Position numbers and translations under genes: made by a program. From contig JBAZKE010000001.1 of NCBI GenBank assembly GCA_041650915.1, positions 187,284 to 251,283 on the forward strand: a stretch of 64,000 bases of DNA. Reading direction: 5' to 3'. Each line of letters begins with the position of its first letter. Positions within the stretch are counted from its first letter, which is position 1. Of the stretch, positions 2,845 through 39,181 are shown piece by piece. The notes below the pieces were generated by a model. The model was not told the DNA's origin. It saw only the letters and a program-made list of their open reading frames with translations, and made no database searches. Source of the DNA: Patescibacteria group bacterium (GTDB lineage Bacteria > Patescibacteriota > Patescibacteriia > UBA10025 > JAHIVO01).

Positions 2845-2873
2845 TTTTTTATTCGATGAGCTATCGAGAGGAA

Positions 2874-16400: not shown

Positions 16401-16409
16401 ATAGTGTTA

Positions 16410-22110: not shown

Positions 22111-22187
22111 GGGCGGTTAGCTCAGCTGGCTAGAGCGTCTGCTCGACACGCAGGAGGTCAGTGGTTCGAGTCCACTACCGCCCACCA
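22111..22187 (+). tRNA. tRNA-Val (GAC)
   Basis: gggcggttagctcagctggctagagcgtctgctcGACacgcaggaggtcagtggttcgagtccactaccgcccaCCA. The anticodon loop is tcGACac and CCA is encoded. Confidence 0.7.
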
Positions 22188-22202
22188 TTGTATCCGATAT
22201 CT

Positions 22203-22856
22203 ATGAGACTATCATTTGGGCGCGGTGAAACCCGCGACAGGAAGATTCAAGAAGAGAAGAGGCTGCAGCGCGCTTCAGACGTGCCTGCATTTGCCGAGTC
22301 TCCGAAGAAGTTCATCTTCGAGCTTCTCAAGATCGTACTCATCGCCCTCGCGGTGATCATCCCCGTCCGCTACTTCTTGTTCCAGCCTTTCTACGTGCGG
22401 GGGGCGTCGATGGAGCCGTCATTCCATGATAATGAATATCTGATCATCGATGAGATTACGTATCGGTTTGCAGACCCGCAGCGCGGAGAGGTGGTCGTGG
22501 TCAAGAATCCGGACCGCACCTCGGAGTTTTTTATCAAACGCATCATCGGTTTGCCCGGCGAGACAATTGAGGTAAAAAACGGCGACGTGGTAATTTTTAA
22601 TTCGAGCAAGCCGCTCGGCTTCATTCTTGAAGAACCGTATCTTTCTGAGGAAGTCGTCACGAGAGGCGGGCAACGCACGACACTCGGGCCGGACCAGTAC
22701 TTCGTCATGGGTGATAACCGGTCAGTGAGCCTGGACTCGAGAACCTTCGGCCCGCTTAATTCGTCCTTTATCGTCGGCCGGGCGTGGCTCAGAGTGTGGC
22801 CGTTTGAAGAATTTGAACACTTTACCCCGCCAGCCTATAACTTAAACGGAGCATAG
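22203..22856 (+). CDS. lepB: Signal peptidase I
   Basis: TM anchor, then the catalytic Ser box 'RGASMEP', 'KRIIGLPGE' and 'GDNRSVSLDSR' boxes. The six-frame ORF start at 22161 overlaps the tRNA, so the ATG at 22203 is preferred. Confidence 0.85.
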   Translation: MRLSFGRGETRDRKIQEEKRLQRASDVPAFAESPKKFIFELLKIVLIALAVIIPVRYFLFQPFYVRGASMEPSFHDNEYLIIDEITYRFADPQRGEVVVVKNPDRTSEFFIKRIIGLPGETIEVKNGDVVIFNSSKPLGFILEEPYLSEEVVTRGGQRTTLGPDQYFVMGDNRSVSLDSRTFGPLNSSFIVGRAWLRVWPFEEFEHFTPPAYNLNGA

Positions 22857-22857
22857 T

Positions 22858-24237
22858 ATGCCAAAGAAGCCAGAAGAAAGAGCAAAGAAGCAGCCCCAGC
22901 TCTTGCGGGGTATGAGGGATATATTGCCTGAGGACCAGCCGTACTGGAATTTTATCCGTACGCGCGTTGCGAGCGTTGCGTCGGCATACAGCTTTGGCCG
23001 CATTGACTGCCCGATACTCGAGGAAGCGTCTCTCTTTATCCGGTCAGTCGGAAAAGATACTGATATCGTCGAGAAAGAAATGTATACCTTTGAAGAAAAG
23101 AGCGGCACCCCGGTCACGATGCGCCCGGAGGGTACGGCAAGCATCTGCCGTGCCTATATCGAGCACGGCATGCTCAACCGGCCCCAGCCGGTGAAGCTAT
23201 ACTACGTTGGGCCTTTTTTTCGGTACGATCGGCCGCAAGCCGGCAGATACCGGCAGTTCTACCAGTTCGGGTTTGAGGCACTCGGTGACGACCATGCGGT
23301 ACTCGATGCCCAGATTATGATGCTCGCGTACAATTTATATGCGGAGGCTGGCATACCCGTTTCGCTGCAGGTGAACAGCATTGGGCATCCTGAGTGCCGA
23401 GATGGTTATCGGAAAGCGCTCGTAGATTACTACCGGACACGGAAGAATGCGCTCTGTGAAGAGTGCAAGCGCCGGCTCCTCAAGAATCCATTGCGGCTCT
23501 TGGACTGCAAGGAGCCGGACTGCCAGGTGCTCGCGCAGGATGCGCCGCAAACCGTTGACTACCTGTGCGAGGATTGCAATAAGCATTTCGTGACCGTTCT
23601 GGAGCACCTTGATGAGCTCGATATTTCGTACGTGCTTAATACGAGGCTTGTGCGGGGGCTCGACTACTATTCGGGTACCGTTTTTGAGCTGTGGCCGGAA
23701 ACGAGTGAGGCGGGTGAGAACCAGGTGAAGGCATCATCCCAGTCAGCGCTCGGCGGCGGCGGCCGGTACGATTATCTCATTGAGTCGCTCGGCGGCCAGC
23801 CGACACCGGCGATCGGATTTTCAGGAGGCATTGAGCGGATGATCGTCGAGCTCAAGCGGCGGCAGAGCGATATTGGGAAGGGGCCATTGCCCGATATCTT
23901 CGTGGCGCAGCTCGGGGATGCCGCACGCAAAAAATCACTCAAGCTCTTCGAAGACTTGCGCCGTTCCAGCTTTAAGGTCGCCGAGAGTTTTTCCAAAGAC
24001 GGCCTCAAGCCGCAGATGGAGATGGCGCACAAGCTGGGCGCAAAATTTGCACTTATACTCGGGCAGAAGGAGATCATGGACGATACGATACTCATCAGAG
24101 ACATGGAGAGCGGCATTCAGGAAACCGTACATTACGCGAAGGCAAGTGAAGAGATAAAACGCCGCCTCGAGAAGTATATGGTTGTTCATAGGGACAGGGT
24201 ACAGGAGCAAGAGCAAACCAAGGAACATAATGGGTAG
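22858..24237 (+). CDS. hisS: Histidyl-tRNA synthetase
   Basis: 459 aa. Class II aaRS motifs (LRGMRDILPE, RYDRPQAGRYRQFYQ, GGGRYDYLIE) and a C-terminal anticodon-binding domain. Carries an insertion with Cys pairs CEEC...CKEPDC...CEDC. Confidence 0.9.
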   Translation: MPKKPEERAKKQPQLLRGMRDILPEDQPYWNFIRTRVASVASAYSFGRIDCPILEEASLFIRSVGKDTDIVEKEMYTFEEKSGTPVTMRPEGTASICRAYIEHGMLNRPQPVKLYYVGPFFRYDRPQAGRYRQFYQFGFEALGDDHAVLDAQIMMLAYNLYAEAGIPVSLQVNSIGHPECRDGYRKALVDYYRTRKNALCEECKRRLLKNPLRLLDCKEPDCQVLAQDAPQTVDYLCEDCNKHFVTVLEHLDELDISYVLNTRLVRGLDYYSGTVFELWPETSEAGENQVKASSQSALGGGGRYDYLIESLGGQPTPAIGFSGGIERMIVELKRRQSDIGKGPLPDIFVAQLGDAARKKSLKLFEDLRRSSFKVAESFSKDGLKPQMEMAHKLGAKFALILGQKEIMDDTILIRDMESGIQETVHYAKASEEIKRRLEKYMVVHRDRVQEQEQTKEHNG

Positions 24238-24571
24238 CTGTATTTTTTGCAGTATCATCAAGGGCGAGGTAGCGTCTGAGATCGTTTATGAGTCAGACGA
24301 GTTCATCGTGATCAAAGATATCGCGCCGAAGGCGCCCGTACACCTGCTGTTGATGCCGAAACGCCACATTGAGACGCTCAATGATATGCGGAGTTCAGAC
24401 AGCGCGCTGCTCGGAGCCATGCACTATAAGGCTATTCAGCTTGCTGCCCGGTTTGGAATTGCAGAGAGTGGGTATAAAATCATCACGAATACCGGGGCAG
24501 ATGGCGGACAGGTAGTCAAGCATGTGCACATTCACCTGCTCGGCGGTAAAAAATTATCAGGGGAAGTATAG
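24230..24571 (+). CDS. HIT-family (histidine triad) nucleotide hydrolase
   Basis: 'CIFCSII', then 'HVHIHLLGG' histidine triad. The ATG at 24230 overlaps the hisS stop by 8 bp. Confidence 0.8.
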   Translation: MGSCIFCSIIKGEVASEIVYESDEFIVIKDIAPKAPVHLLLMPKRHIETLNDMRSSDSALLGAMHYKAIQLAARFGIAESGYKIITNTGADGGQVVKHVHIHLLGGKKLSGEV

Positions 24572-24632
24572 AGGGGGGGGGGGCAACAAGCCTGCCGCGG
24601 CAAGGAACCTTATTTTCCAGGCTTTTTAAGTT

Positions 24633-24660
24633 TTGCATCAAGTTTGACATTCGGTATAAT
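24633..24660 (+). promoter_or_regulatory. Sigma70-like promoter upstream of rpsU
   Basis: TTGCAT (24633-38), a 16-nt spacer, then TATAAT (24655-60). A GGGAGGTG RBS precedes the GTG start at 24744. Confidence 0.5.
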
Positions 24661-24743
24661 CGCGTGTTATATTAAATAAGCAATTTGACAGTCGGTATGA
24701 GGTTTCATTCATTCATTAATCCAATTAGGGAGGTGAATTTTTT

Positions 24744-25031
24744 GTGGTCGAAGTAAAGAAACGGGAAGGCGAGTCACCTGAGAGTCTGGTACGGCGGTTT
24801 ACGAAGAAGGTGCAGGCGAGCGGTGTTCTGATTCGGGCAAAGCGCGGGAGGTACCGGGCACCGAAGAAGAGTAAGTTGCAGCTCAAGCAGGAGGCCACGA
24901 GGCGGAAGCAAATCAGGGATAAGAAAGAATTCCTGCGCAAGATTGGCAAGCTCGACGATTTTATTGATCCAAAGCGGCCGAACAAACGGGGGACGATGAA
25001 GAAGCTCTTGCAGGCACGGGTAAAAAAGTAA
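24744..25031 (+). CDS. rpsU: 30S ribosomal protein S21
   Basis: 95 aa basic protein. 'ESPESLVRRFTKKVQASGVLIRAKRGRYRAPKKSK' matches the S21 family pattern. GTG start. Confidence 0.8.
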   Translation: MVEVKKREGESPESLVRRFTKKVQASGVLIRAKRGRYRAPKKSKLQLKQEATRRKQIRDKKEFLRKIGKLDDFIDPKRPNKRGTMKKLLQARVKK

Positions 25032-25054
25032 GGTGACGCATCTTTATCCGCCAG

Positions 25055-25504
25055 ATGACTACATTTGAAAAAATTGAAGTCGATATTCAGAAGGCTCAGA
25101 CAGCCCGCGATGTGTTGACGCTGTCAGTGCTGCGACTCGTGAAGAGTGCACTGCATAATTTTGCAATTGAAAAGAGGAAAAAAGATACCGGACTGAGTGA
25201 AGAAGATACGATTGCCGTCCTCGGCACTCAGGCAAAGCAGCGTAAAGATTCAATCGCAGCGTACGAGAAGGGCGGGCGCTCTGATCTCGCCGAGAAAGAA
25301 AAAAATGAGCTGGCAATCATCAGCCGGTACTTGCCCCCCCAGCTGCCGGATGAGGAGATCAAAAAAGTTGTTCATAGAGTTGTGGAGAGTGTTGGCGCTG
25401 GTGCCGATAGCTTCGGCGCGGTTATGGGCAGGTCCATGGCCGAGCTCAAGGGCAGGGCGGACGGCGCTGCCGTTTCTCGCATCGTAAAGGAAGTGCTGGG
25501 TTAG
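25055..25504 (+). CDS. yqeY: GatB/YqeY domain protein
   Basis: 149 aa. The 'LSVLRLVKSAL...' YqeY/GatB C-terminal domain pattern, commonly encoded next to rpsU. Confidence 0.75.
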   Translation: MTTFEKIEVDIQKAQTARDVLTLSVLRLVKSALHNFAIEKRKKDTGLSEEDTIAVLGTQAKQRKDSIAAYEKGGRSDLAEKEKNELAIISRYLPPQLPDEEIKKVVHRVVESVGAGADSFGAVMGRSMAELKGRADGAAVSRIVKEVLG

Positions 25505-25580: not shown

Positions 25581-28500
25581 ATGGGTATAGAGAATAAAAA
25601 AAGTTTTCTCCGTGGATTTTCGGCAAGCCTCATCGTTGGCGCGTTTCTGCTGCTGCCGCTCTTTTTTGGCATGAGTAACCCGGTCCACGCGCAGGCTGGC
25701 GTTTCCGGCGAGCTCGGCGCAACATTCGGGCTCGGCACTGCCGACCTCATGTCAACCGTGATCAGCATAGTCCAGTGGTTTCTCGGCTTCCTCGGCCTCA
25801 TTGCCGTCATCATGATCCTGTACGGCGGATTCCTATGGATGACTGCCCGCGGTGATGTGGCGCGGATCGACAAGGCGAAGAAAGTCATCCAGCGGGCGAT
25901 TATTGGGCTCATTATCGTCCTGCTCTCGTGGTCTATCGTAACGTTTATATATAAGGTAGTTAGCGACGCGACAAGTACCCCGCCGCTGCCCGCACACTGC
26001 TCAGATGGCATCCAGAATTTCGATGAAACCGGCGTTGACTGCGGCGGCGTTGACTGCTTGCCGTGCGGGCATATCTTGCCGACCGACGATTTTGAGTGGG
26101 ATGAGAATGAGACATCCTTTGCATCAGGCGGAGACTATGCAACAGACGTAAACCGCTGCAGCCGCATCCAAGCGCTCTTCAACCACAATGTTGACCAGGC
26201 GAGCGTTGATGCGCTCTGGGCGCCTGACAATTCCGGTGAAATATTCGTTGAAGGCTTTACGCCGGTAGGCAGCGTCGAGTGGGTGACCTCCGGGAAGATG
26301 CTCACCTTCAAGCATGATGACGATCTGCTGGGATCGGATCTCGGGCCTGTCGGGTACCGCCTCTGGATGCCGAAAGCGGTTCGGGATACGGATGGATCCG
26401 GCATACTGCTCGAGACCATTTCTACTGGTGTTTCCGGCGAGGGCACCAATCCGCATGGCGGCGGCACGCCGAATGATGCGTTCTATTGGGATTTCCAGAC
26501 CGGCACCGAGATTGACGATGTCATGCCGACTATTACCGATACGTATCCAATATCTGATCTGGCGAGCCCGTGGTATCCGGACCAGAGTGTTGTCCGCGCT
26601 CCCGAAATCGAGATCAGTTTCAATGAGGCGATTGATGCAACGACGATCTATGGGGCGGGTGGGCACCCGATCGCGGGAAATTTTGTGCTCGAGGAGCTCG
26701 CGAGCTTCGGCGGTGCGGTCGTCGGAACGGTACCCGATGCAAATCTCGGGGTAGAGATGATGGCGCAGGGCTTCCGTATCCGGATGGTACCGCCAAATCT
26801 CCTCGAGTCCTGGACATGGTACCGGATCACGATTGATCATATCGAAGACCTCTGCGGCAATCCGATGCCAGGCCCATACGTGTGGGAGTTCCAGACGACC
26901 GACCTCGCACCGGGCGTTTCCGGGTACTACCCGACCGGTTCGAGCGAGTGCCCCGATGTTATTCCCACGATCGTATTCAATACGCAGATGTTCAGTGACC
27001 TTGTCCACATTGAAATAAACGGCTCAGACGGATCGCAATACATCGCTGAAATGCGCCCCTCTAATATTAATCCCGCATCCAATCCGAATTTTATACTTGG
27101 GACGCTGCCTGGCTCCCCGAATATGGGGTACCTGCAGGTGGCCGACCATGCCATGCCGGTTGATAATCGGTTCCGTGTTTTTGAATTCCATCCATCTGAT
27201 ATCGTTTATAATCCTGTCCCCTTGAGCACAAACACAACGTATACCGTCGATGTGACGACTGATAAGCTCATCGATGTTTCCACATACCTGTCGCAGAGCT
27301 GGTCGTTTACTACGGCCGATGCAGCTTCGTGCACCTGTGCGCCGTTTATCACGAGCATAAGCCCGAATGCCGGCCCCCGGGGAGAGTGCATCACGGTACA
27401 TGGGCCGTGCTTCCAGGGCACTCCCGCCAATCCCGCGTCGATTACCAGTTTTACTTTCGTTGATCCTTATGATGGTATCCCTGGCGTTACGACCGCAACG
27501 CCGGACGGTTCAGGGCCGACGTACGTCGCGACCACGCTTCCGCTCGCGTTCAACGACGGAGATTTTGCGCGGCCCCAGATCGAAATTACCTACGATCCGC
27601 CGTCTTCGTTCGGTACCGTGGCGAGCAGCAACGCGAGCGTGGATTACTACGTAGCGACGCCTGATACCGCAACCGGTCCGTGCCTGTTTGGTATTAATCC
27701 GTCATCGGGTTACCACGGAACCGGCGTTAGCCTGACGGGCACCCGCTTCAATCCGACGAGTTCGCTCAAGCGGGTGAATTTCACAGGCGATTTCCAGACC
27801 CTGACGAGCTGGTACGATGATTGGGCAACGACGACCGTACCGGGCGGCGCGGCGTACGGCATCAACCAGGTCAGTATTGAGAATGATGCCGGCCCGAGCA
27901 ATAAAGTTCCTTTTGAAGTGTCTACCATCCCTCCCAACGAGCCGGTCGTCATCAACCACTACCCGATCTGCCAGGACGTGTGCCCCACTGCGCAGGTCGG
28001 CGGTACCATCAGCCTCAACGTGACCGCCAGCATGCTGTACGGCCCGGCGAGTACTGTCCGGCTGTACGAGTGCACGGATGCTACCTGTGCTTCACTGACC
28101 TTCGTTCCGGCAGCTGACGTGGTGTTTACAACTTCTCTTATCGGGGGCAATACCGATTTCAGCATAAACCACAGCACGGGATGGGCGGTGGATACGAACT
28201 ACCGCGTAGTCCTTACGAACGCGATCCAGAGCAGCACGGGGGGTTACCTCTCAACCGTCAACTATACCGATCCGTTTTCCGGTGAGCTCGCGTACTCGTG
28301 GACCTTTAAGACGAAGCCCGATGCCGCAGGGTGCGTTATGGAGACCGTTGAAACAATTCCACCGACGGCCTCCGAGCCGGTTGGAGTGCATATTGATTAC
28401 GTAGCGAACGCGCGGACCGCACCGGACTCGTGCGATCCGTCTGGCCAAATCCTCAATGCAAATCTTTTCACCTGGACTTGGGCTGTTGACGATCCGCTCA

Positions 28501-31500
28501 GCCGTGCTCCAGTTCCGGCGTCGGTTGATGCGTCGGTTGCCATTCCGCCTAATCTTAATGTTGCGATCGCTACCACGGTCGAGCCGACAGGCACCGACCC
28601 GGTATTTATCGAGCCGACGGCAACGGACGGCGCGGTGACCGAAACCGGAAGCGGCGAGCTCAACGTAACGACCGATCCGCCGCCGGTGCCTCCATCGCCT
28701 GCAGTTGTCAACCATTATCCGACGTGCGGTGATGTCTGTCCAAACGGCCAGATTGGCGGCGCAATAAGCCTCAATGTTGCCGCGAGCATGGTGTACGGAG
28801 GCGGCAGCACGGTGCGGCTGTACGCATGCGCCGACGCTTCGTGTGATCCGGGTTCGCTCACGCCGGTTGCGCCCGGCGACGTGGTATTTAACGCAACGTA
28901 CGACGGCTCGTCCGTAACTAATTTTAGTATCAATTCCGCAACCACGTGGCCCGCTGACCAGAACTACCGGGTATTTTTATCCGGAGCGATCGCCGATGCG
29001 GTAAACGGAATGTTGTTATCGGGCCTCAACTGGACCGATCCGCTCGACGGTGTTTCGGGCTACACGTGGCAATTCAAGACAAAAGCTGGCGCGGGAGCAT
29101 GCTCGCTGGAATCTGTTGAAACAATTCCGCACGTGTTTTCATTGCCAGAGACGATGACCCATAATTACTACGCAAATGCCCGTTCGCTTCCGGACTCGTG
29201 CGATCCGGCGGGCCAGATCCTCGATCCAAATCCGCTCATATGGTCGTGGGATATACGCGATCCGCTCTCACGGGTGCCCGCAGTCGCCTCAGTCGACGCT
29301 TCGGCTGCCGTGCCCGCTAACCTCAACCACGCGGTTGCTACTGCAATCCACAGCACGGTAGCGGATCCCGTCTATGTACGGGCACAGGCGACAGATCCAG
29401 GAGCGCCGGTTACGCATGAGGGCGAAGGTGAGTTTACCATAACGGCAGACCCTCCGCCGATACCGCCCTCGCCGATGGTTGTGAACCACTACCCCACGTG
29501 CGGAGATGTATGCCCGAACGGCTTGGTCCGCGGCACCATTACCCTCGATGTGCTCGCGAGTTTGTCATACGCACCGGCAGGAACCGTCCGCTTGTACTCG
29601 TGTTCTGATCCCGCATGTGCACCGGGTACGATGACATTCGTCCCCGCAGCAGATATCAATTTCGTACCGACCGTCAACGGTGGCAATACTGATTTTGAGA
29701 TAAACCACAGCACCGGCTGGGCAGCGGATACGGGCTACCGCGTTTTTCTCGCCGCGGGGATCACTGATGGCGTTGAAACGCTCGCAAGCATCAATTATAC
29801 CGATCCGGCGGACAGCACTCCCGGCTACTCCTGGACGTTCAAAACAAAGCCTGGCGCTGGCGCGGTGTGCTCCCTCCAGTCCGTTGAGACCGTGCCGAGC
29901 AGCTTGATTCTTGCTGAGACTGAATCTTACAACTATTACGCAAATGCGCGTTCGCTACCAGACTCGTGCGATCCGGCAGGCCAGATCCTCGATCCGAATC
30001 CGCTCACGTGGGTTTGGGACGTCAGGGATCCGCTCCTCCGCGCACCGGTACCTGCCATAGCTGATGCGGTGCCGGCGGTTCCGCCGAATTTGAACCATGC
30101 AGTCACGACCGCGGTCGCCGGTACAGGTGCGAATCCAGTCTATATACGGGCACAGGCTACTGATCCTGGATCGGCTGTTACGCACGAGGATGAGGGCACA
30201 CTCAGCGTTTCGGCAGGGCTTCCCCCGGATCCCCAACCGCCGACCGTCATTGACCGGAACCCGCTCTGCAACGATGTCTGCCCGAACGGCTTGATCCGCG
30301 GCACGATAAGCCACGACGTTGCAGCGAGCATGGCGTACGGCTCCGGCAGTACGGTGCGGCTGTACTCCTGCTCAGACCCGAGCTGTGCCCCGGGAACTCT
30401 CACGATTGTGCCGGATGCCGACATTACCTTTACTGTGACGGTGAATGGCGGCAATACTGATTTTGAAATCAACCACGCGTCGGGGTGGACTCCTGATACG
30501 GGCTACCGCGTGTTTCTGTCGCAGGGAATCACGGATGGAGTACGGAATTTGGCGAATCCAAACTGGTCAGATCCGTTCGACGGCACCTCAGGCTACTCAT
30601 GGGTATTCAAGACAAAACCGGGCGCGGATGCATGCGTGCTTGAAACGGTGGACATGGTCCCATCGATCGCGAGCGAGCCTGCATCGGTAACTATCAGCTA
30701 CTACGCGAATGCCCGTTCACTCCCGGATTCGTGCGATCCCGCCGGCCAAATTATTGATCCCTATACGTTCACCTGGACATGGAATATCAATGATCCGCTC
30801 GCACGCGTGCCTATCGTTGCCTCTGTCGATGCGTCGACTGTCGTGCCGCCGAACTTGAACCACGCTCTCACAACTACGCTCGAGCCGACGGGAACCGACC
30901 CGGTCACCGTCGAAGCCAATGCGCAGGTCGGCGCACTCTCGAGGACGGGCAGCGGTGAGCTCAACATTACCACCGATCCGCCTCCTACTGACCCATATCC
31001 GACCGTTGTCCTTTGGTACCCCGAGTGCCAGGACGTGTGCCCCAATGCGCAGGTTGGCGGGCGGATAACCCTCGACGTGGGCGCCTCGATGTCGTATACC
31101 GCACAGAGCGATACGGTACGGCTCTATACTTGTTCTGATCCAACCTGCGGTCCCGGCACGATGACGTACGTCGGTCCCGGTATGGTAACGCTCACTGCGA
31201 GCTACATTGGCGGTAATACTGAGTTTGCCGTTAATGCACTTGCAAACTGGCCTGCCGATACGTACTACCGCGTGTTCCTTTCCCGCGATATCGTCGATGC
31301 AACGTATGGACATACGCTCGCCAGCCTCAACTGGTCAGACCCTTTTGACAGCACGCCGGGATACTCATGGACATTCAAGACAAAAGCAGGATCCGATCCC
31401 TGCGCACTCGAAACAGTCGAGACGCTTCCCCCGTACGCTTCAACGACGCTCGGTGTGAATGTCACATACCTAGCGAATGGCCGGACCTTGCCTGACTCCT

Positions 31501-34500
31501 GTGATGCAGCAGGCCAGATACTGAATCCGGCTGGCTTGTCCTGGACGTGGTCGTATAATGATCCCTTTGGCAGGCCAGGTTTGCCGCTTGCGACGGTTAT
31601 CCAGGACAGCCTCAATCATGCCCACGCGATCCCGGTTGCGCGGACAAATTTCCAGCCGGTGCAGGCAGTCGCGGGCGCGACGCAGGGCGGTCCGATTGTA
31701 TCTGGAGCCGGCAATCTTGATATACTCGACTGCACGGATAATACGTTCTGCCGCGACCACTGCTTTGCGCTTACCGGGGTGCCCAATAGCTCTACTTGTG
31801 ATCTCGCGACAGGCAGCTGCACGCCGGTTGTCACCTCTCTGGTCCAGAACCAAGGCCCGATTGATACCTCGTTCAGCGTCAACGGCTGCTACTTCGGCGC
31901 AACGAGGGATGATGGCGCGGTTATGTATTATACGGCCGCTCAACCCGGTGGAGTTGCAGCTGCCTTGCTCTGCGGTGATGTCGGCTGGTCCGACAACCAG
32001 ATCATTGCCAGCATGAGCCTCAATCCGGCTCTGTATAGCGCTGGAGATGTCGTCACGGTTTCACCGAGAACGGGAAGCATATACGGCGCCCTAAGCCCGA
32101 ATCCAGGGGATACGGAAGAATTCACCTTGAGCGATGAGTGTATCCCGGGAGTGAGCGTCCCATCCGGCGGCATGCCGATACTCTGCCAGGTTGTGCCAGG
32201 CACGGCTGCATTAGGGCAGGATATATCGCTCGATGGGTTTAATTTCGTTGGGGCGATATCCAGCGCCGCACAGTTTTATACTGGTTCCGGTGTGCCGCCC
32301 TATACGCCTGGAGTTGCCGGATCATTTGTCGCGGCTGTCCCGCCGTATGAGGATCGGTATTCAAATGTGACGGTTCCCGGAGCAGCAGTGAGCAGCGCTA
32401 CGCTCGGCGTGCGGATGCTTGTCGATAGCTGTCCATCCAATCCAGTTGGCTTTGGCGTGCGGTGCGACGACGATACTGACTGTACGGTGCCCGGATACCA
32501 GTGCTGTGCATTCGATCCGGGGCACGGCGAGAATGTTTGTTCCCTTGATGCACTGTGCAGCTCCGGCGGGCCTGGAGATCCGTGTACCGATGGCGCTGTC
32601 TGCCCGGTTGGCCCGTCGTGTATTGATCCCGCTAACTATTCATGCCTGACCGACGGTGGCGACTGTAACTGCTGCTGCGCTCCGGGGCAGGTGAGCACGA
32701 CCGGGCTCGATTGCGTGACAAACCAGGCTCCCTGTGATGGCGGCACCCGCGGGTTGTACTGCGGGTGCACGAGTGACGCTGACTGCGGTAATCCGGCAAC
32801 TATCGGCTGCTCTCCCGTGGCGCCGAACTGCTGCTACCAGCGTCCGCGCGTAGTAACCGCGCAGTCAACGCCGCTACCTGGCGCGCCAAATGTATGCCTC
32901 AACGCAGGGATGATCGTCGTATTCGATCAAGCAATGGATAACAGTACGCTTATAGCGGGTAACATTATTCTGCAGGATGTAACCGGGAGCACATCGAGAG
33001 CCATCACCGTCACTGGGATGGGGGACCGCGCCCTTGTGCATCCGGATGCGCTGCTAGAGTCAAACCACGTACATAGGATTGTCATACTCGGACAGCCCCT
33101 CGGGGGGGTTCGTTCTGCACGACAGATTGCCTTGGCCGGCGCGGGTTTAAACTATGATTATAATTCAGACGGTGTCCTCGACAGCTTCGCGTGGACGTTC
33201 ACGACCCGGTTGAACACGTGCGCTATTACTGGATACTATATGCGGGCAGGCTGGGCCACTGGATCGGATTTTGATCCGCGGGTAACTCCCGTCAGCTTCA
33301 ATTGCGCTCACGATACGTGCTTCAACGACCGCAATACAACACATCCAGGCAACAATATTCACGTCTATGCCTACCCGCTCGATGAGAACGGCAACTACGT
33401 TGCCGATTCAATCATTTCCTGGTCAGAATTTGATCCGTCGAATGCCCTGCTTTTGGAAGATCCGGTTTTTCCTCCTGATCCGCCGTCCCCGAATGGCATC
33501 AACCACTATCTGACTGCGCAGAACAGCACTGGCATGGTAACCGTTACTGTAACGGCAAACTCTCCGTCGTCCGGCACCTACAGTGAGAATTTTGAGGTCA
33601 ACGTCGACCTCTGTACCGCGCCGTGGCCTGATGTGTGGGCAGGAGATGACTACCCATTTGTGGATGATACCGGCAATCCCACCCACGAAACACAGTTTTC
33701 CGTGTCGTACTGCCGTGAACCGGGAGGGCTGCCCCTGCTCAATTCGCCGTCCGTTGCGATCATTGATGAGAATGTTCCGAGTGAGCCGGGGAGAGATGAG
33801 CTCCTTAAAGAATTTTTCTTCCTCAGGGCTGGCATAGCTGATGCGATCGGCATCCGGGTCATGGAGAATGAGGGCGGAAAATCGCCTCGCGACTGGTACT
33901 TTCAGCAGTTTGGGCCGTCCGCTCCTGAGCCGCAGGCGCTCACTATCGACGGGTATCCGGCAGTCCGGTCCGGCAGGACGGTGTACGTGACCGCGTGGAA
34001 TGTTGATCTCGGCACCGGTATCATATACCCGAACGTCTACCTCATGTCGTACAGCGACGGGGCATCTGCTGAGACGATTGAGATATACAACAGGATGCTC
34101 GCAAACTGGCGCTTTAATGCGAACCTCACCGCAACTGAAAAAGCGCAGCTTCAGCGCGATATGAAACGCGTGAGCGACCTGAGCGATATCTTCAACAAAC
34201 TCCTCGACTATAAGGCGGCGCATGGCACGTTTCCACTGCTCGAGGGGGGGACTTTTATCAACGGGGTCAGCACGTCGCGGTGGCCATCATGGCAGGAAAC
34301 ACTCGGCGCCGCAGCGGGGATTACGCTGCCGGTGGATCCGCTCAATAACCTGTCTCCAATCACCGCATGCCCGTCGCCGCCATTTGACCAGCAGACCTGC
34401 TGGGATGATGCCGGCAAAGTGTACGTTACCCCGGCCAGTTCACACATCTATTTGTACCGCGCCAGTTCGAGCGGGGACGTCGCGAATCTGTACGCGCGCC

Positions 34501-36749
34501 TTGAGCGTATCTGGTACGATGGCGGTGTAGACTTGTTCATGTGGGCCGGAGCGCCGGTCTTCAACCCGTGCGTTGGCATTCCCAATGCTACGTGCAATGC
34601 CTTCAACTACGCGCACCTCCTGTCGGGGAGCGCAAGCGACCATACGCCGCCGGTTTTCTTGTGGGCGCACGCGGATGGCTTCACGTTCCTTCCCGATGTC
34701 GGGCCGCCACCGCCGACCCTCCCGGGAGTCAATCCGCTGATTACAGCTTCGTTTATTGACGATATGGAGCTTGCGTATGCTGAGTTTTACATTGACGGGA
34801 TTCTCCGCCATACGTCACCGGTGGAAGCAGGCTTCTTCTACCAGTGGGATGGGTTTGTGCAGACAGATTTTTCCGAGCAGGTGCATAATTTTATGATCAG
34901 GGGCTACGATACTGCGGGCAACTATTCGGATGCGAGCGCGGACATCCAGATCACGCACAATTTCGGAGATACGACCCCGCCCTTTATACAGTTCATTAAC
35001 CCTCTCGATGGCACTACGGTATCGGGCACGGTTCAGGTCCGGGTAACGGGCAGTGATAACAGGCAGATCACGTCATTCCAGCTTGATGTGACTTGCACGG
35101 GCGGCCCTTCGTTCGGGCCCATACCGCCAGTTCCGAATCCGCATACGATTTCGTACAGTTGGGATACGACATCCCAGCCAAACGGCCCCTGCTCGCTCGA
35201 GGCGACGATCTATGACGGCACAAATCCGCCTGTCGTCGCAGCGGTTACCGTGAATATCGATAACCAGGATACGGTTGAGCCGGCCGTAACCCTGACGAGC
35301 GCCCCGGGAACGTGCGCTGCCGACGGTGCAGCCTGCAATATCAGCGTGCCGTGCGCGAACACGGTATGCGACGGCGGATCGAATGACCGCGCCGCCTGTT
35401 CCGGTCCGGCTGATTGCGATACGGGCATCCCGTGCACGCCAATCTGCGAACGTTCGGGTGTCGTTCCGGTCCAGGTAACGGCGACCGATAACCAGGCGGT
35501 CACGAGGGTTGATTTCCTTGTCGATGGCATTGTGCAGGACCAGGGAACGGAGATCGGGCCAAATACCTATGAGTGGCTATGGGATACGCGGATTTACTCG
35601 AACGGCGACCATACGCTCTCGGTGAATGCCTACGATGCTTATAGTAACAGCGGCGGTTTGAGCGTCCAGTACCGCCTGTGGAATGCCGAGCAGGATTCGG
35701 TCCCGCCAACCGTGTCTTTCGTTTCACCTCCGACCCCGGTTTACGGCTCGTCGGTCGATAATACGATAACGGTTGAAGTTGATGCTCTCGACAATCCGGG
35801 CGGTTCAGGCGTGCAAAGGGTTAACTTTTACCTCGATTACGTCTGGAAAGCTGCGGATGCGACAGCCGGGCCGTATTCATGGAACCTCGACACGCTTCCC
35901 ATCTCCGATGGCTGGCACAGAATCCAGGTTGATGCGGTCGATAACAATGGCAACCGCAGCGAGAGCATAGAAATACGGGTTGAGGTTCGCGGCACGGGGG
36001 GTCCGCTCATAACGTATGCGCTCGTGACGCCCTGCAGCGGCGGCCAGTTTACGCCGTTCAACTTTACGGCTGTCGTGACGGATCCGGATGGCGTGAGCAG
36101 GGTGGAAGCGATCATCCAGCAGCCGGATAATGTTCCGATTGACCGGTCTACCATGACTGATGCCGGCCTGGATACGTACATCGGATCTTGGAATTCCGGC
36201 ATCCACGAGGGGACATTCTTTGTTGATATTGAAGCCGAAGACGCGGCAGGGAATATTAGCTGGCTCGATAACATTGAGTGCACGGCAGTGCCCTGTGCCG
36301 TGAACGGAGATGCGTGTAGTGCCGCTTCGGACTGTTGCAGCGGTTACTGTGGCGGCGGCGGCATCTGTGCAGAGCCACCCGCCTGCCTGCCGAATGGGAA
36401 TGCATGTACGGCTAACGGGGATTGTTGCAGCAACTACTGCGATAGTGGGGGGTCGAACCAGTGTGAAGACCTGCCCTCACCCCCGACATGCCCTGACGGG
36501 AATTGTGATGTAGGCGAGGATCCGGATACATGCCCTGCTGATTGCGGGAGCAATTGGTCGGTGTACCTGTGCCATACTCAATTTGGGGAAGTACACGTGA
36601 TCAGCTCGTGGTGTGATACATCCGCAGCTTGCTCTAATCCCGGACCGCCACGGTGGGAGTGCGAAGCATCCGATCCGGCAAATCATGCGTGTCTCAATCC
36701 CGCAAGCCCCGTGGTGTGCTGCATGGTTGATGTAAACTGTGCAATATAG
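25581..36749 (+). CDS. Giant cell-surface protein (3722 aa) with signal peptide, VirB2/TrbC-like double-TM N-terminal anchor, tandem Cys-bearing beta-repeat modules, knottin-like Cys modules and Ig-like C-terminal domains
   Basis: Uninterrupted 11,169-nt ORF. N-terminus has a signal peptide (…PVHA|QAG) followed by two hydrophobic helices separated by a basic loop (…FLWMTARGDVARIDKAKKVIQRAIIGLIIVLL…). Five ~255-aa repeats each contain NHYPxCxDVCPNxxxGG…TVRLYxCxDxxC…GGNTDFxINH…YRVFL…GYSWxFKTK…YYANARSLPDSCDPAGQILDP. C-terminal CxxxxxxCxxxxxCCxxxCxxxxxC modules and Ig-like segments (PPTVSFVSPP…) follow. Confidence 0.8.
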   Translation: MGIENKKSFLRGFSASLIVGAFLLLPLFFGMSNPVHAQAGVSGELGATFGLGTADLMSTVISIVQWFLGFLGLIAVIMILYGGFLWMTARGDVARIDKAKKVIQRAIIGLIIVLLSWSIVTFIYKVVSDATSTPPLPAHCSDGIQNFDETGVDCGGVDCLPCGHILPTDDFEWDENETSFASGGDYATDVNRCSRIQALFNHNVDQASVDALWAPDNSGEIFVEGFTPVGSVEWVTSGKMLTFKHDDDLLGSDLGPVGYRLWMPKAVRDTDGSGILLETISTGVSGEGTNPHGGGTPNDAFYWDFQTGTEIDDVMPTITDTYPISDLASPWYPDQSVVRAPEIEISFNEAIDATTIYGAGGHPIAGNFVLEELASFGGAVVGTVPDANLGVEMMAQGFRIRMVPPNLLESWTWYRITIDHIEDLCGNPMPGPYVWEFQTTDLAPGVSGYYPTGSSECPDVIPTIVFNTQMFSDLVHIEINGSDGSQYIAEMRPSNINPASNPNFILGTLPGSPNMGYLQVADHAMPVDNRFRVFEFHPSDIVYNPVPLSTNTTYTVDVTTDKLIDVSTYLSQSWSFTTADAASCTCAPFITSISPNAGPRGECITVHGPCFQGTPANPASITSFTFVDPYDGIPGVTTATPDGSGPTYVATTLPLAFNDGDFARPQIEITYDPPSSFGTVASSNASVDYYVATPDTATGPCLFGINPSSGYHGTGVSLTGTRFNPTSSLKRVNFTGDFQTLTSWYDDWATTTVPGGAAYGINQVSIENDAGPSNKVPFEVSTIPPNEPVVINHYPICQDVCPTAQVGGTISLNVTASMLYGPASTVRLYECTDATCASLTFVPAADVVFTTSLIGGNTDFSINHSTGWAVDTNYRVVLTNAIQSSTGGYLSTVNYTDPFSGELAYSWTFKTKPDAAGCVMETVETIPPTASEPVGVHIDYVANARTAPDSCDPSGQILNANLFTWTWAVDDPLSRAPVPASVDASVAIPPNLNVAIATTVEPTGTDPVFIEPTATDGAVTETGSGELNVTTDPPPVPPSPAVVNHYPTCGDVCPNGQIGGAISLNVAASMVYGGGSTVRLYACADASCDPGSLTPVAPGDVVFNATYDGSSVTNFSINSATTWPADQNYRVFLSGAIADAVNGMLLSGLNWTDPLDGVSGYTWQFKTKAGAGACSLESVETIPHVFSLPETMTHNYYANARSLPDSCDPAGQILDPNPLIWSWDIRDPLSRVPAVASVDASAAVPANLNHAVATAIHSTVADPVYVRAQATDPGAPVTHEGEGEFTITADPPPIPPSPMVVNHYPTCGDVCPNGLVRGTITLDVLASLSYAPAGTVRLYSCSDPACAPGTMTFVPAADINFVPTVNGGNTDFEINHSTGWAADTGYRVFLAAGITDGVETLASINYTDPADSTPGYSWTFKTKPGAGAVCSLQSVETVPSSLILAETESYNYYANARSLPDSCDPAGQILDPNPLTWVWDVRDPLLRAPVPAIADAVPAVPPNLNHAVTTAVAGTGANPVYIRAQATDPGSAVTHEDEGTLSVSAGLPPDPQPPTVIDRNPLCNDVCPNGLIRGTISHDVAASMAYGSGSTVRLYSCSDPSCAPGTLTIVPDADITFTVTVNGGNTDFEINHASGWTPDTGYRVFLSQGITDGVRNLANPNWSDPFDGTSGYSWVFKTKPGADACVLETVDMVPSIASEPASVTISYYANARSLPDSCDPAGQIIDPYTFTWTWNINDPLARVPIVASVDASTVVPPNLNHALTTTLEPTGTDPVTVEANAQVGALSRTGSGELNITTDPPPTDPYPTVVLWYPECQDVCPNAQVGGRITLDVGASMSYTAQSDTVRLYTCSDPTCGPGTMTYVGPGMVTLTASYIGGNTEFAVNALANWPADTYYRVFLSRDIVDATYGHTLASLNWSDPFDSTPGYSWTFKTKAGSDPCALETVETLPPYASTTLGVNVTYLANGRTLPDSCDAAGQILNPAGLSWTWSYNDPFGRPGLPLATVIQDSLNHAHAIPVARTNFQPVQAVAGATQGGPIVSGAGNLDILDCTDNTFCRDHCFALTGVPNSSTCDLATGSCTPVVTSLVQNQGPIDTSFSVNGCYFGATRDDGAVMYYTAAQPGGVAAALLCGDVGWSDNQIIASMSLNPALYSAGDVVTVSPRTGSIYGALSPNPGDTEEFTLSDECIPGVSVPSGGMPILCQVVPGTAALGQDISLDGFNFVGAISSAAQFYTGSGVPPYTPGVAGSFVAAVPPYEDRYSNVTVPGAAVSSATLGVRMLVDSCPSNPVGFGVRCDDDTDCTVPGYQCCAFDPGHGENVCSLDALCSSGGPGDPCTDGAVCPVGPSCIDPANYSCLTDGGDCNCCCAPGQVSTTGLDCVTNQAPCDGGTRGLYCGCTSDADCGNPATIGCSPVAPNCCYQRPRVVTAQSTPLPGAPNVCLNAGMIVVFDQAMDNSTLIAGNIILQDVTGSTSRAITVTGMGDRALVHPDALLESNHVHRIVILGQPLGGVRSARQIALAGAGLNYDYNSDGVLDSFAWTFTTRLNTCAITGYYMRAGWATGSDFDPRVTPVSFNCAHDTCFNDRNTTHPGNNIHVYAYPLDENGNYVADSIISWSEFDPSNALLLEDPVFPPDPPSPNGINHYLTAQNSTGMVTVTVTANSPSSGTYSENFEVNVDLCTAPWPDVWAGDDYPFVDDTGNPTHETQFSVSYCREPGGLPLLNSPSVAIIDENVPSEPGRDELLKEFFFLRAGIADAIGIRVMENEGGKSPRDWYFQQFGPSAPEPQALTIDGYPAVRSGRTVYVTAWNVDLGTGIIYPNVYLMSYSDGASAETIEIYNRMLANWRFNANLTATEKAQLQRDMKRVSDLSDIFNKLLDYKAAHGTFPLLEGGTFINGVSTSRWPSWQETLGAAAGITLPVDPLNNLSPITACPSPPFDQQTCWDDAGKVYVTPASSHIYLYRASSSGDVANLYARLERIWYDGGVDLFMWAGAPVFNPCVGIPNATCNAFNYAHLLSGSASDHTPPVFLWAHADGFTFLPDVGPPPPTLPGVNPLITASFIDDMELAYAEFYIDGILRHTSPVEAGFFYQWDGFVQTDFSEQVHNFMIRGYDTAGNYSDASADIQITHNFGDTTPPFIQFINPLDGTTVSGTVQVRVTGSDNRQITSFQLDVTCTGGPSFGPIPPVPNPHTISYSWDTTSQPNGPCSLEATIYDGTNPPVVAAVTVNIDNQDTVEPAVTLTSAPGTCAADGAACNISVPCANTVCDGGSNDRAACSGPADCDTGIPCTPICERSGVVPVQVTATDNQAVTRVDFLVDGIVQDQGTEIGPNTYEWLWDTRIYSNGDHTLSVNAYDAYSNSGGLSVQYRLWNAEQDSVPPTVSFVSPPTPVYGSSVDNTITVEVDALDNPGGSGVQRVNFYLDYVWKAADATAGPYSWNLDTLPISDGWHRIQVDAVDNNGNRSESIEIRVEVRGTGGPLITYALVTPCSGGQFTPFNFTAVVTDPDGVSRVEAIIQQPDNVPIDRSTMTDAGLDTYIGSWNSGIHEGTFFVDIEAEDAAGNISWLDNIECTAVPCAVNGDACSAASDCCSGYCGGGGICAEPPACLPNGNACTANGDCCSNYCDSGGSNQCEDLPSPPTCPDGNCDVGEDPDTCPADCGSNWSVYLCHTQFGEVHVISSWCDTSAACSNPGPPRWECEASDPANHACLNPASPVVCCMVDVNCAI
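27930..31760 (+). repeat. Intragenic tandem array of 5 units of ~765 bp (252-258 aa)
   Basis: Anchor motif aaccactaccc/aaccattatcc (NHYP) recurs near 27954, 28710, 29484, 30250 and 31010. Unit lengths are 756-774 bp and units are diverged (~50-65% aa identity). Confidence 0.7.
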
Positions 36750-38479: not shown

Positions 38480-38510
38480 CTTGTGCGAGTGGTAAAGGAA
38501 AATTCACGTA

Positions 38511-39158: not shown

Positions 39159-39181
39159 TATGCTTTATTAATACCTTTGGT

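What the first reader, a model, noticed from the sequence alone, without database searches (positions are those of the whole stretch)
25581..25985. The giant protein starts with a T4SS-pilin (VirB2/TrbC)-like hydrophobic hairpin
After a cleavable signal peptide (…SNPVHA|QAG) come two long hydrophobic helices separated by a short basic loop (…VQWFLGFLGLIAVIMILYGGFLWMTARGDVARIDKAKKVIQRAIIGLIIVLLSWSIVTFIY…). This is the architecture of TrbC/VirB2-type conjugative pilins, here apparently used as the membrane anchor of a multi-thousand-residue ectodomain.
Basis: inference. Interest (0 to 1): 0.6.

Follow-up and report, generated by a model that had tools for sequence, protein, structure and literature searches.

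The report
Giant surface protein with VirB2-like anchor
A 3,722-residue surface protein of an uncultured Patescibacterium starts with a complete copy of the small "conjugative pilin" hairpin. The same design heads more than a hundred other giant proteins in this group, which raises the question of what these so-called pilins really do.

Summary
ORF 25581..36749 (+) encodes 3,722 aa with a signal peptide (AxA|Q) and two hydrophobic helices joined by a basic loop. There are no other hydrophobic segments.

- Residues 57-123 match Pfam PF18895 T4SS_pilin above threshold (42 bits against a cut-off of 26.6).
- The module is 60-68% identical to free 117-aa Patescibacteria pilins.
- A profile of these pilins aligns colinearly with canonical plasmid VirB2/TrbC (hhalign 91.5%, E 9e-7; reversed and shuffled controls at most 1.5%).

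This is a family trait, not a one-off:
- At least 106 cluster representatives of 1,068-5,369 aa begin with the same module.
- In 36 of 64 related genomes, pilin-headed genes lie just downstream of lepB-hisS(-yqeY), usually as a pair of one mid-size and one giant gene.
- The hairpin is the best-conserved N-terminal part, and paired genes share only this module.

No T4SS gene lies in the window or the 8 kb beyond it. Two draft genomes with the module are listed as lacking VirB4.

Best reading: a membrane-tethered giant adhesin whose VirB2-type hairpin anchors it and probably packs with other pilin modules. Incorporation into a pilus is unproven. The domain call is already in databases. I found no published description of the fusion family.

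The parts
25581..36749 (+). Whole gene: 3,722-aa pilin-headed giant surface protein (NCBI MFA5134324.1, annotated 'Ig-like domain-containing protein')
25581..25691 (+). Signal peptide, residues 1-37. The n-region carries K6, K7 and R11, the h-region is 13-31, and the c-region is SNPVHA with predicted cleavage A37|Q38.
   Evidence: Hydropathy and charge count. The AxA|Q site aligns with that of free pilins and with the AAA|Q region of Agrobacterium VirB2. Cleavage itself is inferred.
25749..25949 (+). PF18895 T4SS_pilin match, residues 57-123
   Evidence: 42.1 bits against GA 26.6, model positions 5-71 of 71. 45.1 bits on the mature segment alone.
25749..25844 (+). Hydrophobic helix 1 (about residues 57-88), carrying the motif LGxLGLIAVIxIxYGGFxWMT
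25845..25895 (+). Short basic loop (residues 89-105, ARGDVARIDKAKKVIQR), predicted cytoplasmic. The KAKK motif is conserved.
   Evidence: 6 K/R against 2 D/E. 42% mean identity over 106 giants.
25896..25973 (+). Hydrophobic helix 2 (hydropathy core 106-124; the AF2 helix runs to 131)
25998..26069 (+). Cys-rich motif of about 24 aa, CSDGIQNFDETGVDCGGVDCLPC (residues 140-163), first module outside the membrane
   Evidence: Sequence. The same motif recurs up to 39 times in other proteins (P0148) and occurs in T9SS-tailed proteins. It is absent from most orthologues (66% gaps).
26070..26990 (+). Conserved membrane-proximal ectodomain (residues 164-470), including a Big_5 Ig-like domain at 335-439
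   Evidence: Big_5 E 1.9e-32. Aligns colinearly 1-470 with more than 100 giant representatives.
27948..31772 (+). Five tandem repeats of about 255 aa (starting at residues 790, 1042, 1300, 1556 and 1809), 47-60% identical to one another
   Evidence: The same repeat type is present in orthologous giants.
33768..34664 (+). Conserved unnamed module (residues 2730-3028). It also occurs near the N-terminus of 293-814-aa proteins.
   Evidence: No Pfam match. AF2 pLDDT 70. No PDB fold match at E<=0.001.
35565..35984 (+). Big_7 / Big_3_3 Ig-like domains (residues about 3329-3468)
36258..36746 (+). Cys-rich C-terminal tail (residues about 3560-3722; 21 Cys in the last 220 residues)
22161..25504 (+). 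Conserved upstream synteny block: S26 signal peptidase (22161-22856), hisS (22858-24237), HIT (24182-24571), S21-like small ORF (24744-25031), yqeY (25055-25504)
   Evidence: The same order is seen in L003-L006 and in GTDB loci.

Best explanation
The gene encodes a giant cell-surface fibre, most likely an adhesin, of an ABY1-type Patescibacterium. Its first 130 residues are a complete VirB2-type pilin module.

Proposed mechanism:
1. The protein is exported by Sec.
2. The signal peptide is removed at VHA|Q.
3. The two helices insert as a hairpin, with the basic loop in the cytoplasm and both ends outside.
4. The roughly 3,600-residue ectodomain therefore projects from the cell. It is acidic, poor in lysine, and built of Ig-like and Cys-rich modules.

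The hairpin is not a degenerate anchor. It is kept as conserved as the free 117-aa pilins and is matched between paired genes of one genome. It therefore probably packs side by side with other pilin modules, free or fused, in the membrane, as VirB2 protomers do. Whether it is then extracted into a pilus by a type IV secretion machine is open.

Shown here: homology, topology features, family size, synteny and conservation pattern.
Inferred: signal-peptide cleavage, orientation, adhesin role and oligomerisation.
For: Homology:
- PF18895 above threshold.
- 133.9 bits to an HMM of free pilins across HMM positions 15-117 of 118.
- 60-68% identity to free 117-aa pilins, and 55-73% to the hairpins of the twelve best-matching giants.
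- hhalign to canonical VirB2/TrbC gives 91.5% probability, E 8.7e-7, with clean controls.

Topology:
- Three hydrophobic segments only, basic loop, acidic exterior.
- Two-helix AF2 model, pLDDT 81.

Ectodomain:
- Big_5 in four stretches, Big_7 in three, five 255-aa repeats, 3.2% Cys, 0.8% Lys, and no enzyme domain.

Family:
- phmmer of residues 1-470 against 1.84 billion representatives gives 121 hits at E<=1e-30.
- 106 listed representatives of at least 1,000 aa (median 2,035, maximum 5,369) carry the pilin module at the N-terminus.

Synteny:
- 36 of 64 related GTDB genomes have pilin-headed ORFs downstream of hisS on the same strand, and 34 of them have a pair.

Constraint on the hairpin:
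- The helices average 53% identity to the window over 106 giants, against 14-33% for flanking parts.
- The modules of gene 1 and gene 2 in the same genome are 55.9% identical, against 42.7% between genomes. Their similarity ends a median of 2 aa after the module.
Against: - No T4SS gene lies in the window or 8 kb beyond it.
- The closest free pilins examined (P0010, P0015) are also not next to T4SS genes.
- Two genomes carrying the paired module (the sources of L009 and L046) are listed as 'Presence of VirB4: No' in Table S1 of PMC12102498. These are drafts of 724 and 870 kb.
- The fold search of the hairpin against the PDB was non-diagnostic: nothing at E<=0.001 and no pilin among the top 50 hits.
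- A sequence profile found no solved pilin.
- No direct evidence exists for adhesion, cleavage or oligomerisation.
- The within-genome similarity of the modules could come from gene conversion between adjacent genes rather than from a functional need to match.
Confidence: 0.7

Rival explanations
1. Modular VirB2 pilin. A Patescibacterial T4SS extracts the hairpin from the membrane and builds it into a VirB2-type pilus together with free 117-aa pilins. The giant ectodomain then hangs from the filament, at the tip or at sparse lateral positions, as a host-binding adhesin.
For: - The module is as conserved as free pilins and belongs to the same sequence cluster.
- The loop motif WMTAxG...KAKK is retained.
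- The modules of paired genes co-vary within a genome.
- From established knowledge: in F-type and T-type pili both pilin termini face outward, and C-terminal peptide extensions of F-pilin are displayed on the pilus.
- Patescibacteria commonly encode a T4SS with VirB2-like pilins. These pilins are essential in Southlakia epibionticum (PMC12102498, PMC10633639).
- ABY1 genomes frequently have VirB4.
Against: - No T4SS genes lie near this gene or its orthologues.
- Two of two checkable genomes with the module lack a detected VirB4.
- A 3,600-residue appendage on every subunit is sterically incompatible with a homopolymer.
- No pilus made of PF18895 proteins has been shown experimentally in the papers read.
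Confidence: 0.2
2. Plain membrane anchor. The hairpin was recruited from a pilin gene only as a convenient N-out/C-out tether, and has no interaction with other pilins or with a T4SS.
For: - The genes are chromosomal, among housekeeping genes, and far from T4SS loci.
- The module is present in genomes without detected VirB4.
- Different ectodomains are attached to near-identical hairpins. P0230, P0250 and P0265 match the window only over the first 126-211 residues.
Against: - A mere tether need only stay hydrophobic. Here the helices, the loop motif and the pre-helix GLGTADL motif are conserved at 36-53%, while the adjoining linker falls to 14%.
- Paired genes keep only this module alike.
Confidence: 0.25
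3. Precursor that is split. By analogy with the C-terminal trimming of RP4 TrbC, a protease cuts after helix 2. This would release the giant ectodomain to the surface or medium and leave a normal free pilin.
For: - From established knowledge, C-terminal processing of TrbC-type pilins has precedent: RP4 TrbC is trimmed and cyclised by TraF, an S26-family peptidase.
- A Pro-rich, poorly conserved linker follows helix 2 (14% identity).
- An S26 peptidase gene lies 3 kb upstream.
Against: - The S26-hisS adjacency is universal. It is found in 60 of 60 related loci whether or not pilin-headed genes follow, so it is not a dedicated maturase.
- No conserved cleavage motif appears after helix 2.
- Genomes of this group already carry several free pilin genes.
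Confidence: 0.07
4. Artefact. A free pilin gene and a downstream giant gene were joined by a sequencing or assembly error.
For: Free pilins of this group end where helix 2 ends.
Against: - An identical ORF is present in an independent assembly.
- 106 representatives of at least 1,000 aa have the same fused architecture.
- The architecture is conserved at a syntenic position in dozens of genomes.
Confidence: 0.01

Closest known systems
Patescibacteria VirB2-like pilins (Pfam PF18895 T4SS_pilin). These include the essential pilin array of Southlakia epibionticum, and were surveyed in Quinonero-Coronel et al. 2025 (PMC12102498).
   Same: Signal peptide with AxA|Q, the pre-helix GLGTADL motif, two hydrophobic helices, and the loop motif WMTAxG..KAKK. 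Identity is 60-68% over the whole mature pilin.
   Different: Those are proteins of about 100-140 aa, often in arrays and often near virB4. This one continues for 3,600 residues after helix 2 and sits among housekeeping genes. The paper reports pilin arrays but, in the text and tables I searched, no giant fusions.
Canonical conjugative pilins VirB2 (Agrobacterium Ti plasmid) and TrbC (Pfam PF04956)
   Same: Colinear profile match covering the leader cleavage site, helix 1, the loop and helix 2 (hhalign 91.5%). The predicted topology is the same.
   Different: It scores below the PF04956 threshold. No sequence match to solved pilins was found. Head-to-tail cyclisation, as in VirB2/TrbC, needs a free C-terminus just after helix 2, which is absent here unless the protein is cut. 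The host is a monoderm.
Modular type IV pilins, that is, type IV pilus subunits carrying a grafted C-terminal functional domain (for example Streptococcus sanguinis PilB and PilC; from my own knowledge)
   Same: A pilin module at the N-terminus with a bulky functional or adhesive module grafted onto the exposed C-terminal end.
   Different: The pilin superfamily is unrelated: a single N-terminal helix processed by a prepilin peptidase, against a two-helix hairpin processed by signal peptidase I. The grafts are far smaller. This is an analogy only.
Mycoplasma ICE 'Mbov_0395 family pilin-like conjugal transfer protein' (NCBIfam NF045849)
   Same: A weak hit over the hairpin, residues 56-126 against model positions 9-79 of 80. 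It is also from wall-less or monoderm bacteria.
   Different: The score is 32.1 bits against a cut-off of 40, so this is not a member. Those are small proteins encoded on ICEs.
Giant Ig-repeat adhesins of other bacteria (RTX adhesins such as SiiE and LapA, and Ebh-type proteins; from my own knowledge)
   Same: Multi-thousand-residue, acidic fibres rich in Ig-like repeats that project from the cell.
   Different: Those are exported by type I secretion or anchored by LPXTG or a C-terminal TM segment. None is known to me to start with a VirB2-type hairpin.

Membership tests
Pfam PF18895 T4SS_pilin (Patescibacteria VirB2-like pilins) | Score at or above the curated gathering threshold, with the match covering the model | tested here: met
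   42.1 bits against 26.6, model positions 5-71 of 71. 45.1 bits on the mature segment alone.
Pfam PF18895 T4SS_pilin (Patescibacteria VirB2-like pilins) | Sec signal peptide followed by two hydrophobic helices joined by a short basic loop | tested here: met
   Hydropathy and charge, AF2 helices, alignment with 52 free pilins. No dedicated SignalP or TMHMM run was possible.
Pfam PF18895 T4SS_pilin (Patescibacteria VirB2-like pilins) | Small stand-alone protein of about 100-140 aa | tested here: not met
   3,722 aa. This is a domain-level member, not a typical family member.
Pfam PF18895 T4SS_pilin (Patescibacteria VirB2-like pilins) | Encoded with or near T4SS genes (virB4, virB6, virB3/prgI, trsD) | tested here: not met
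   None was found among the ORFs scanned in the 64-kb window or in 8 kb further right. The rest of the 680-kb contig could not be read. The paper finds pilins near virB4 in only 1,135 of 1,948 assemblies, so this feature is not strict.
TrbC/VirB2 conjugative pilins (Pfam PF04956) | Score at or above the gathering threshold | tested here: not met
   20.2 bits against 27.9, E 7e-4.
TrbC/VirB2 conjugative pilins (Pfam PF04956) | Superfamily-level homology to bona fide VirB2/TrbC | tested here: met
   hhalign of A3 against eight annotated plasmid VirB2/TrbC proteins: 91.5%, E 8.7e-7, 82 columns. Reversed template 0.8%; 20 column shuffles at most 1.5%. Eight of 53 close relatives hit PF04956 at E<=0.01.
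TrbC/VirB2 conjugative pilins (Pfam PF04956) | Fold matching solved pilin protomers (F TraA, T-pilus VirB2) | tested here: inconclusive
TrbC/VirB2 conjugative pilins (Pfam PF04956) | Polymerises into an extracellular pilus with help from VirB4 and the T4SS | not testable with these tools
   Needs experiment or the full genome.
NCBIfam NF045849 Mbov_0395 pilin-like conjugal transfer protein | Score at or above the curated cut-off | tested here: not met
   32.1 bits against 40.
Pilin-headed giant surface proteins of ABY1-type Patescibacteria (unnamed family defined here) | N-terminal PF18895 module, a colinear conserved region of about 340 aa with Big_5, and an ectodomain of more than 1,000 aa | tested here: met
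   Colinear 1-470 alignments to more than 100 representatives. 106 of these are at least 1,000 aa and carry an N-terminal pilin hit.
Pilin-headed giant surface proteins of ABY1-type Patescibacteria (unnamed family defined here) | Position downstream of lepB-hisS(-yqeY) on the same strand | tested here: met
   Window, L003-L006, and 36 of 64 GTDB loci. The window has one such gene where most loci have two.

The most novel reading that the evidence does not exclude
The VirB2-type hairpin is a general assembly module in Patescibacteria. Free 117-aa pilins, tandem poly-pilins and giant pilin-headed adhesins would co-assemble through it into one filament or membrane array. These giants would then be 'modular VirB2 pilins', which present host-binding fibres on a T4SS-type pilus or on a T4SS-independent polymer. 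This would be the first case of a conjugative-type pilin carrying a large grafted domain. It would also bear on why the pilins are essential for the epibiotic lifestyle.
Probability: 0.25. Interest if true: 0.8.

Novelty: new variant of a known kind. Interest (0 to 1): 0.55.

Why it matters
Patescibacteria are mostly uncultured episymbionts. Their T4SS and its VirB2-like pilins are essential in the one species tested, yet nobody knows what the pilins build (PMC10633639, PMC12857230).

This analysis found three things:
- The same pilin module heads a large, syntenic family of giant Ig-repeat surface proteins.
- The module is under tighter constraint than the rest of the N-terminus.
- The module is matched between paired genes.

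Together these link the 'pilin' module to cell-surface display and host contact. They also yield a concrete prediction: co-assembly of free and fused pilin modules.

The analysis also cautions against reading every PF18895 hit as a pilus subunit of a T4SS, because some genomes with these genes have no detected VirB4.

Tried and rejected
1. Full-length protein search. It timed out and was replaced by searches with residues 1-600 and 1-470.

2. Fold search of the hairpin against the PDB. Only generic helical hairpins were returned, so it is non-diagnostic. The sequence profile against PDB chains gave no pilin hit.

3. The idea that the upstream S26 peptidase is a dedicated TraF-like pilin maturase. 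Rejected, because S26-hisS adjacency occurs in 60 of 60 related loci regardless of pilin genes.

4. My early impression that the nearest relatives of the hairpin are all free pilins. This was an artefact of the word-indexed search. The exhaustive search shows giants with equally or more similar hairpins, up to 73%.

5. Walking out of the window to look for T4SS genes. To the left only a 4-kb contig was available, carrying ferritin and DsbA genes. To the right, 8 kb showed more surface proteins and acetate kinase but no T4SS. One look-up failed on a wrong start codon.

6. Context of the close free pilins P0010 and P0015. No T4SS neighbours were found.

8. R388 accession BR000038 is not in the plasmid collection. 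I used Ti-plasmid VirB2 relatives instead.

9. Literature searches for VirB2 or pilin fusions with giant or adhesin domains in CPR bacteria found nothing.
Full report
THE OBSERVATION

The window holds one very long ORF, 25581..36749 on the + strand, encoding 3,722 aa.

A Kyte-Doolittle scan (19-residue window, threshold 1.6) finds only three hydrophobic segments in the whole protein: residues 13-31, 67-85 and 106-124.
- The first segment has the features of a Sec signal peptide. K6, K7 and R11 lie before it, and 'SNPVHA|Q' follows it.
- The segment joining the other two (residues 89-105) carries 6 K/R against 2 D/E.
- The 50 residues after the last helix carry 1 K/R against 11 D/E.

By the positive-inside rule the loop is cytoplasmic and both ends of the hairpin are outside, so the remaining 3,600 residues are extracellular. 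AlphaFold2 of residues 38-140, run with 58 homologues, gives two long helices at protein residues 56-88 and 93-131, with mean pLDDT 81.

WHAT THE HAIRPIN IS

- Residues 57-123 match Pfam PF18895 'Type IV secretion system pilin' at 42.1 bits (gathering score 26.6), covering model positions 5-71 of 71.
- The older TrbC/VirB2 model PF04956 is hit below threshold (20.2 against 27.9 bits).
- NCBIfam's Mycoplasma ICE pilin-like model is also below its cut-off (32.1 against 40).
- A search with the first 163 residues returned 187 proteins. The 120 listed are 103-141 aa, nearly all about 117 aa. They carry PF18895, and those with a source name come from Patescibacteria, several of them Kerfeldbacteria. 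Identity is 35-66%.
- An HMM built from these scores the window protein at 133.9 bits over HMM positions 15-117 of 118. A whole free pilin is therefore embedded at the N-terminus. Nothing else in the window matches this HMM.

To test the link to classical conjugative pilins, I fetched eight annotated VirB2/TrbC genes that sit between virB1 and virB3 on MPF_T plasmids. I then compared profiles. hhalign gives 91.5% probability, E 8.7e-7, over 82 colinear columns, and the AxA|Q leader-cleavage sites are superposed. With the template reversed the probability is 0.8%. With 20 column shuffles it never exceeds 1.5%.

Fold comparison was not informative. A two-helix hairpin matches many unrelated helical proteins, and no hit reached E 0.001. 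No solved pilin was found by sequence profile either.

IT IS A FAMILY, NOT A FREAK

The identical ORF is present in an independent Logan assembly. It is in NCBI as MFA5134324.1, 'Ig-like domain-containing protein', on a 680-kb contig.

An exhaustive phmmer search of residues 1-470 against 1.84 billion cluster representatives gave 32,998 hits at E<=0.001 and 121 at E<=1e-30. Of the 148 listed representatives other than the window's own protein:
- 129 carry an N-terminal pilin module.
- 106 of those are at least 1,000 aa long, with median 2,035 and maximum 5,369.
- Most align colinearly over residues 1-470.

Shorter fusions (343-863 aa, with Big_5 or TIG domains) also exist.

CONSERVED POSITION

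In four metagenomic contigs the fusion genes follow the same housekeeping block as in the window: S26 signal peptidase, then hisS, then a small ORF, then yqeY in three of the four. In these contigs they usually come as a pair. The first gene has a pilin head and encodes about 600-860 aa. The second has a pilin head and encodes a giant of 1,864, 1,865 or 4,171 aa.

Using a HisRS alignment I fetched 80 GTDB species representatives. The best identity was 57%, and the records are named Uhrbacteria, Magasanikbacteria, Kerfeldbacteria, Buchananbacteria and Falkowbacteria, which the T4SS paper's Table S1 assigns to class ABY1 where they are listed.
- Of 64 loci with at least 3 kb downstream of hisS, 36 have pilin-headed ORFs there on the same strand.
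- 34 of those have two such ORFs.

The window's protein is the counterpart of the giant second gene. It shares the 255-aa repeat type and the module at residues 2730-3028. Its residues 1-470 also resemble the first gene. The window has a single gene where most relatives have two.

CONSTRAINT ON THE HAIRPIN

Mean identity to the window over the 106 giants, by region:

| Region | Identity |
|---|---|
| Two helices | 53% |
| Loop | 42% |
| Pre-helix GLGTADL segment | 36% |
| Linker after helix 2 | 14% |
| Following ectodomain | 17-33% |

In genomes with two genes, the two pilin modules are 55.9% identical to each other. Modules from different genomes are 42.7% identical. The similarity between the two proteins stops a median of 2 residues after the module.

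The window's hairpin is as close to free pilins (median 61%, maximum 68%) as to the best giants (up to 73%). A mere tether would only need to stay hydrophobic. This pattern suggests that the module contacts something specific. The most economical candidate is other pilin modules, though gene conversion between neighbouring genes is an alternative cause of the within-genome similarity.

THE REST OF THE PROTEIN

After a Pro-rich linker the order is:
1. A 24-aa Cys motif (residues 140-163).
2. Ig-like Big_5 domains.
3. Five tandem 255-aa repeats, 47-60% identical to one another.
4. A Cys-rich stretch.
5. A conserved unnamed module (2730-3028). It also occurs near the N-terminus of 293-814-aa proteins.
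6. Big_7 domains.
7. A Cys-rich tail.

The composition is acidic and very poor in lysine (0.8%). No enzymatic domain was detected. This is the make-up of a surface fibre or adhesin. The adhesin role is an inference.

LINK TO A TYPE IV SECRETION SYSTEM

This link is not shown.
- Every sizeable ORF of the window was scanned against Pfam. The window holds housekeeping, cell-division, competence (DprA, ComEC) and type IV pilus (PilM, PilT-like) genes, but no VirB4, VirB6 or VirD4.
- The 8 kb to the right adds more surface proteins only.
- The closest free pilins that I could place (P0010, P0015, on a 1.1-Mb Kerfeldbacteria contig) also lie among housekeeping genes.
- The published survey of Patescibacterial T4SS found VirB2-like pilins in 1,948 VirB4-containing assemblies, near virB4 in 1,135 of them (PMC12102498).
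- In that paper's Table S1 the two genomes that I could match to my loci (the sources of L009 and L046) are both listed as lacking VirB4. They are drafts of 724 and 870 kb, and many other ABY1 genomes have VirB4.

The idea that the upstream S26 peptidase is a TraF-like pilin maturase fails. The S26-hisS pair is universal in this group (60 of 60 loci).

VERDICT

The most likely mechanism is a Sec-exported, signal-peptidase-processed giant adhesin. A VirB2-type hairpin holds it in the cytoplasmic membrane, and the hairpin probably also mediates packing with other pilin modules. Incorporation into a T4SS pilus, as a 'modular VirB2 pilin', remains possible but unproven. I put it at roughly one in four to one in five.

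The domain call already exists in precomputed Pfam annotation. Patescibacterial VirB2-like pilins are published. I found no paper that describes pilin-headed giant proteins, their conserved paired locus or the matched modules. I therefore rate this a new variant of a known kind, of moderate interest.

Noticed in passing
P0135, P0232, P0244, P0251, P0257, P0258, P0273, P0276, P0279, P0283, P0290 (database proteins): Tandem 'poly-pilin' proteins. They carry 2 to 8 PF18895 hairpins in one polypeptide, for example 8 in 820 aa (P0290), 6 in 552 aa (P0232) and 3 in 366 aa (P0135). They add to the picture of the hairpin as a reusable module.
   Followed up: partly
window 25998-26069 (protein residues 140-163): A short Cys-rich motif, CxDGxxNxxETGxDCGGxxCxxC, with no Pfam match. 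It recurs up to 39 times in other large proteins (P0148), and single copies occur in proteins with T9SS sorting tails and M43 peptidase domains (P0122, P0128-P0130). Most orthologous giants lack it.
   Followed up: partly
window 33768-34664 (protein residues 2730-3028): A conserved module without a Pfam family. It is shared with orthologous giants and occurs near the N-terminus of 293-814-aa proteins (P0141-P0147, 38-41% identity). The AF2 model has pLDDT 70 and no significant PDB fold match. By eye, its second half (RD..R..DL....L..YK...G.FP...) recalls the head of type IV pilins or pseudopilins. That impression is untested.
   Followed up: partly
window 27948-31772: Five tandem repeats of about 255 aa, 47-60% identical, each starting with VVNHYPxCxDVCPN. 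The same repeat type is present in the giants of related genomes.
   Followed up: partly
window 36848-40318: Three more predicted envelope proteins lie directly downstream on the same strand: a 543-aa secreted Cys-rich protein with Big_7 domains, and two single-TM proteins (215 and 378 aa) with bacterial TSP3 calcium-binding repeats. To the right of the window (L097 12982-20888) lie further large surface proteins with dockerin-like, NHL/FG-GAP and FecR/fn3 features.
   Followed up: no
window 22161-24237 and loci L007-L086: The S26 signal peptidase gene lies immediately upstream of hisS in all 60 related Patescibacteria loci that could be scored. This is a very stable gene pair, independent of the pilin-headed genes.
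   Followed up: yes
window 10605-11777 (-), 15306-17483 (-), 56719-58245 (+): Competence and type IV pilus genes typical of Patescibacteria are present: DprA, PilM plus a PilT/T2SSE-like ATPase, and ComEC. The window GC content is 54%.
   Followed up: no
window 25581-26990 compared with loci L019, L020: The window, and at least two related loci including a Kerfeldbacteria one, have a single pilin-headed giant where most relatives have a mid-size plus giant pair. The window protein's residues 16-470 resemble the first gene of the pair and the rest resembles the second. This suggests a fusion or loss event, which I did not resolve.
   Followed up: partly
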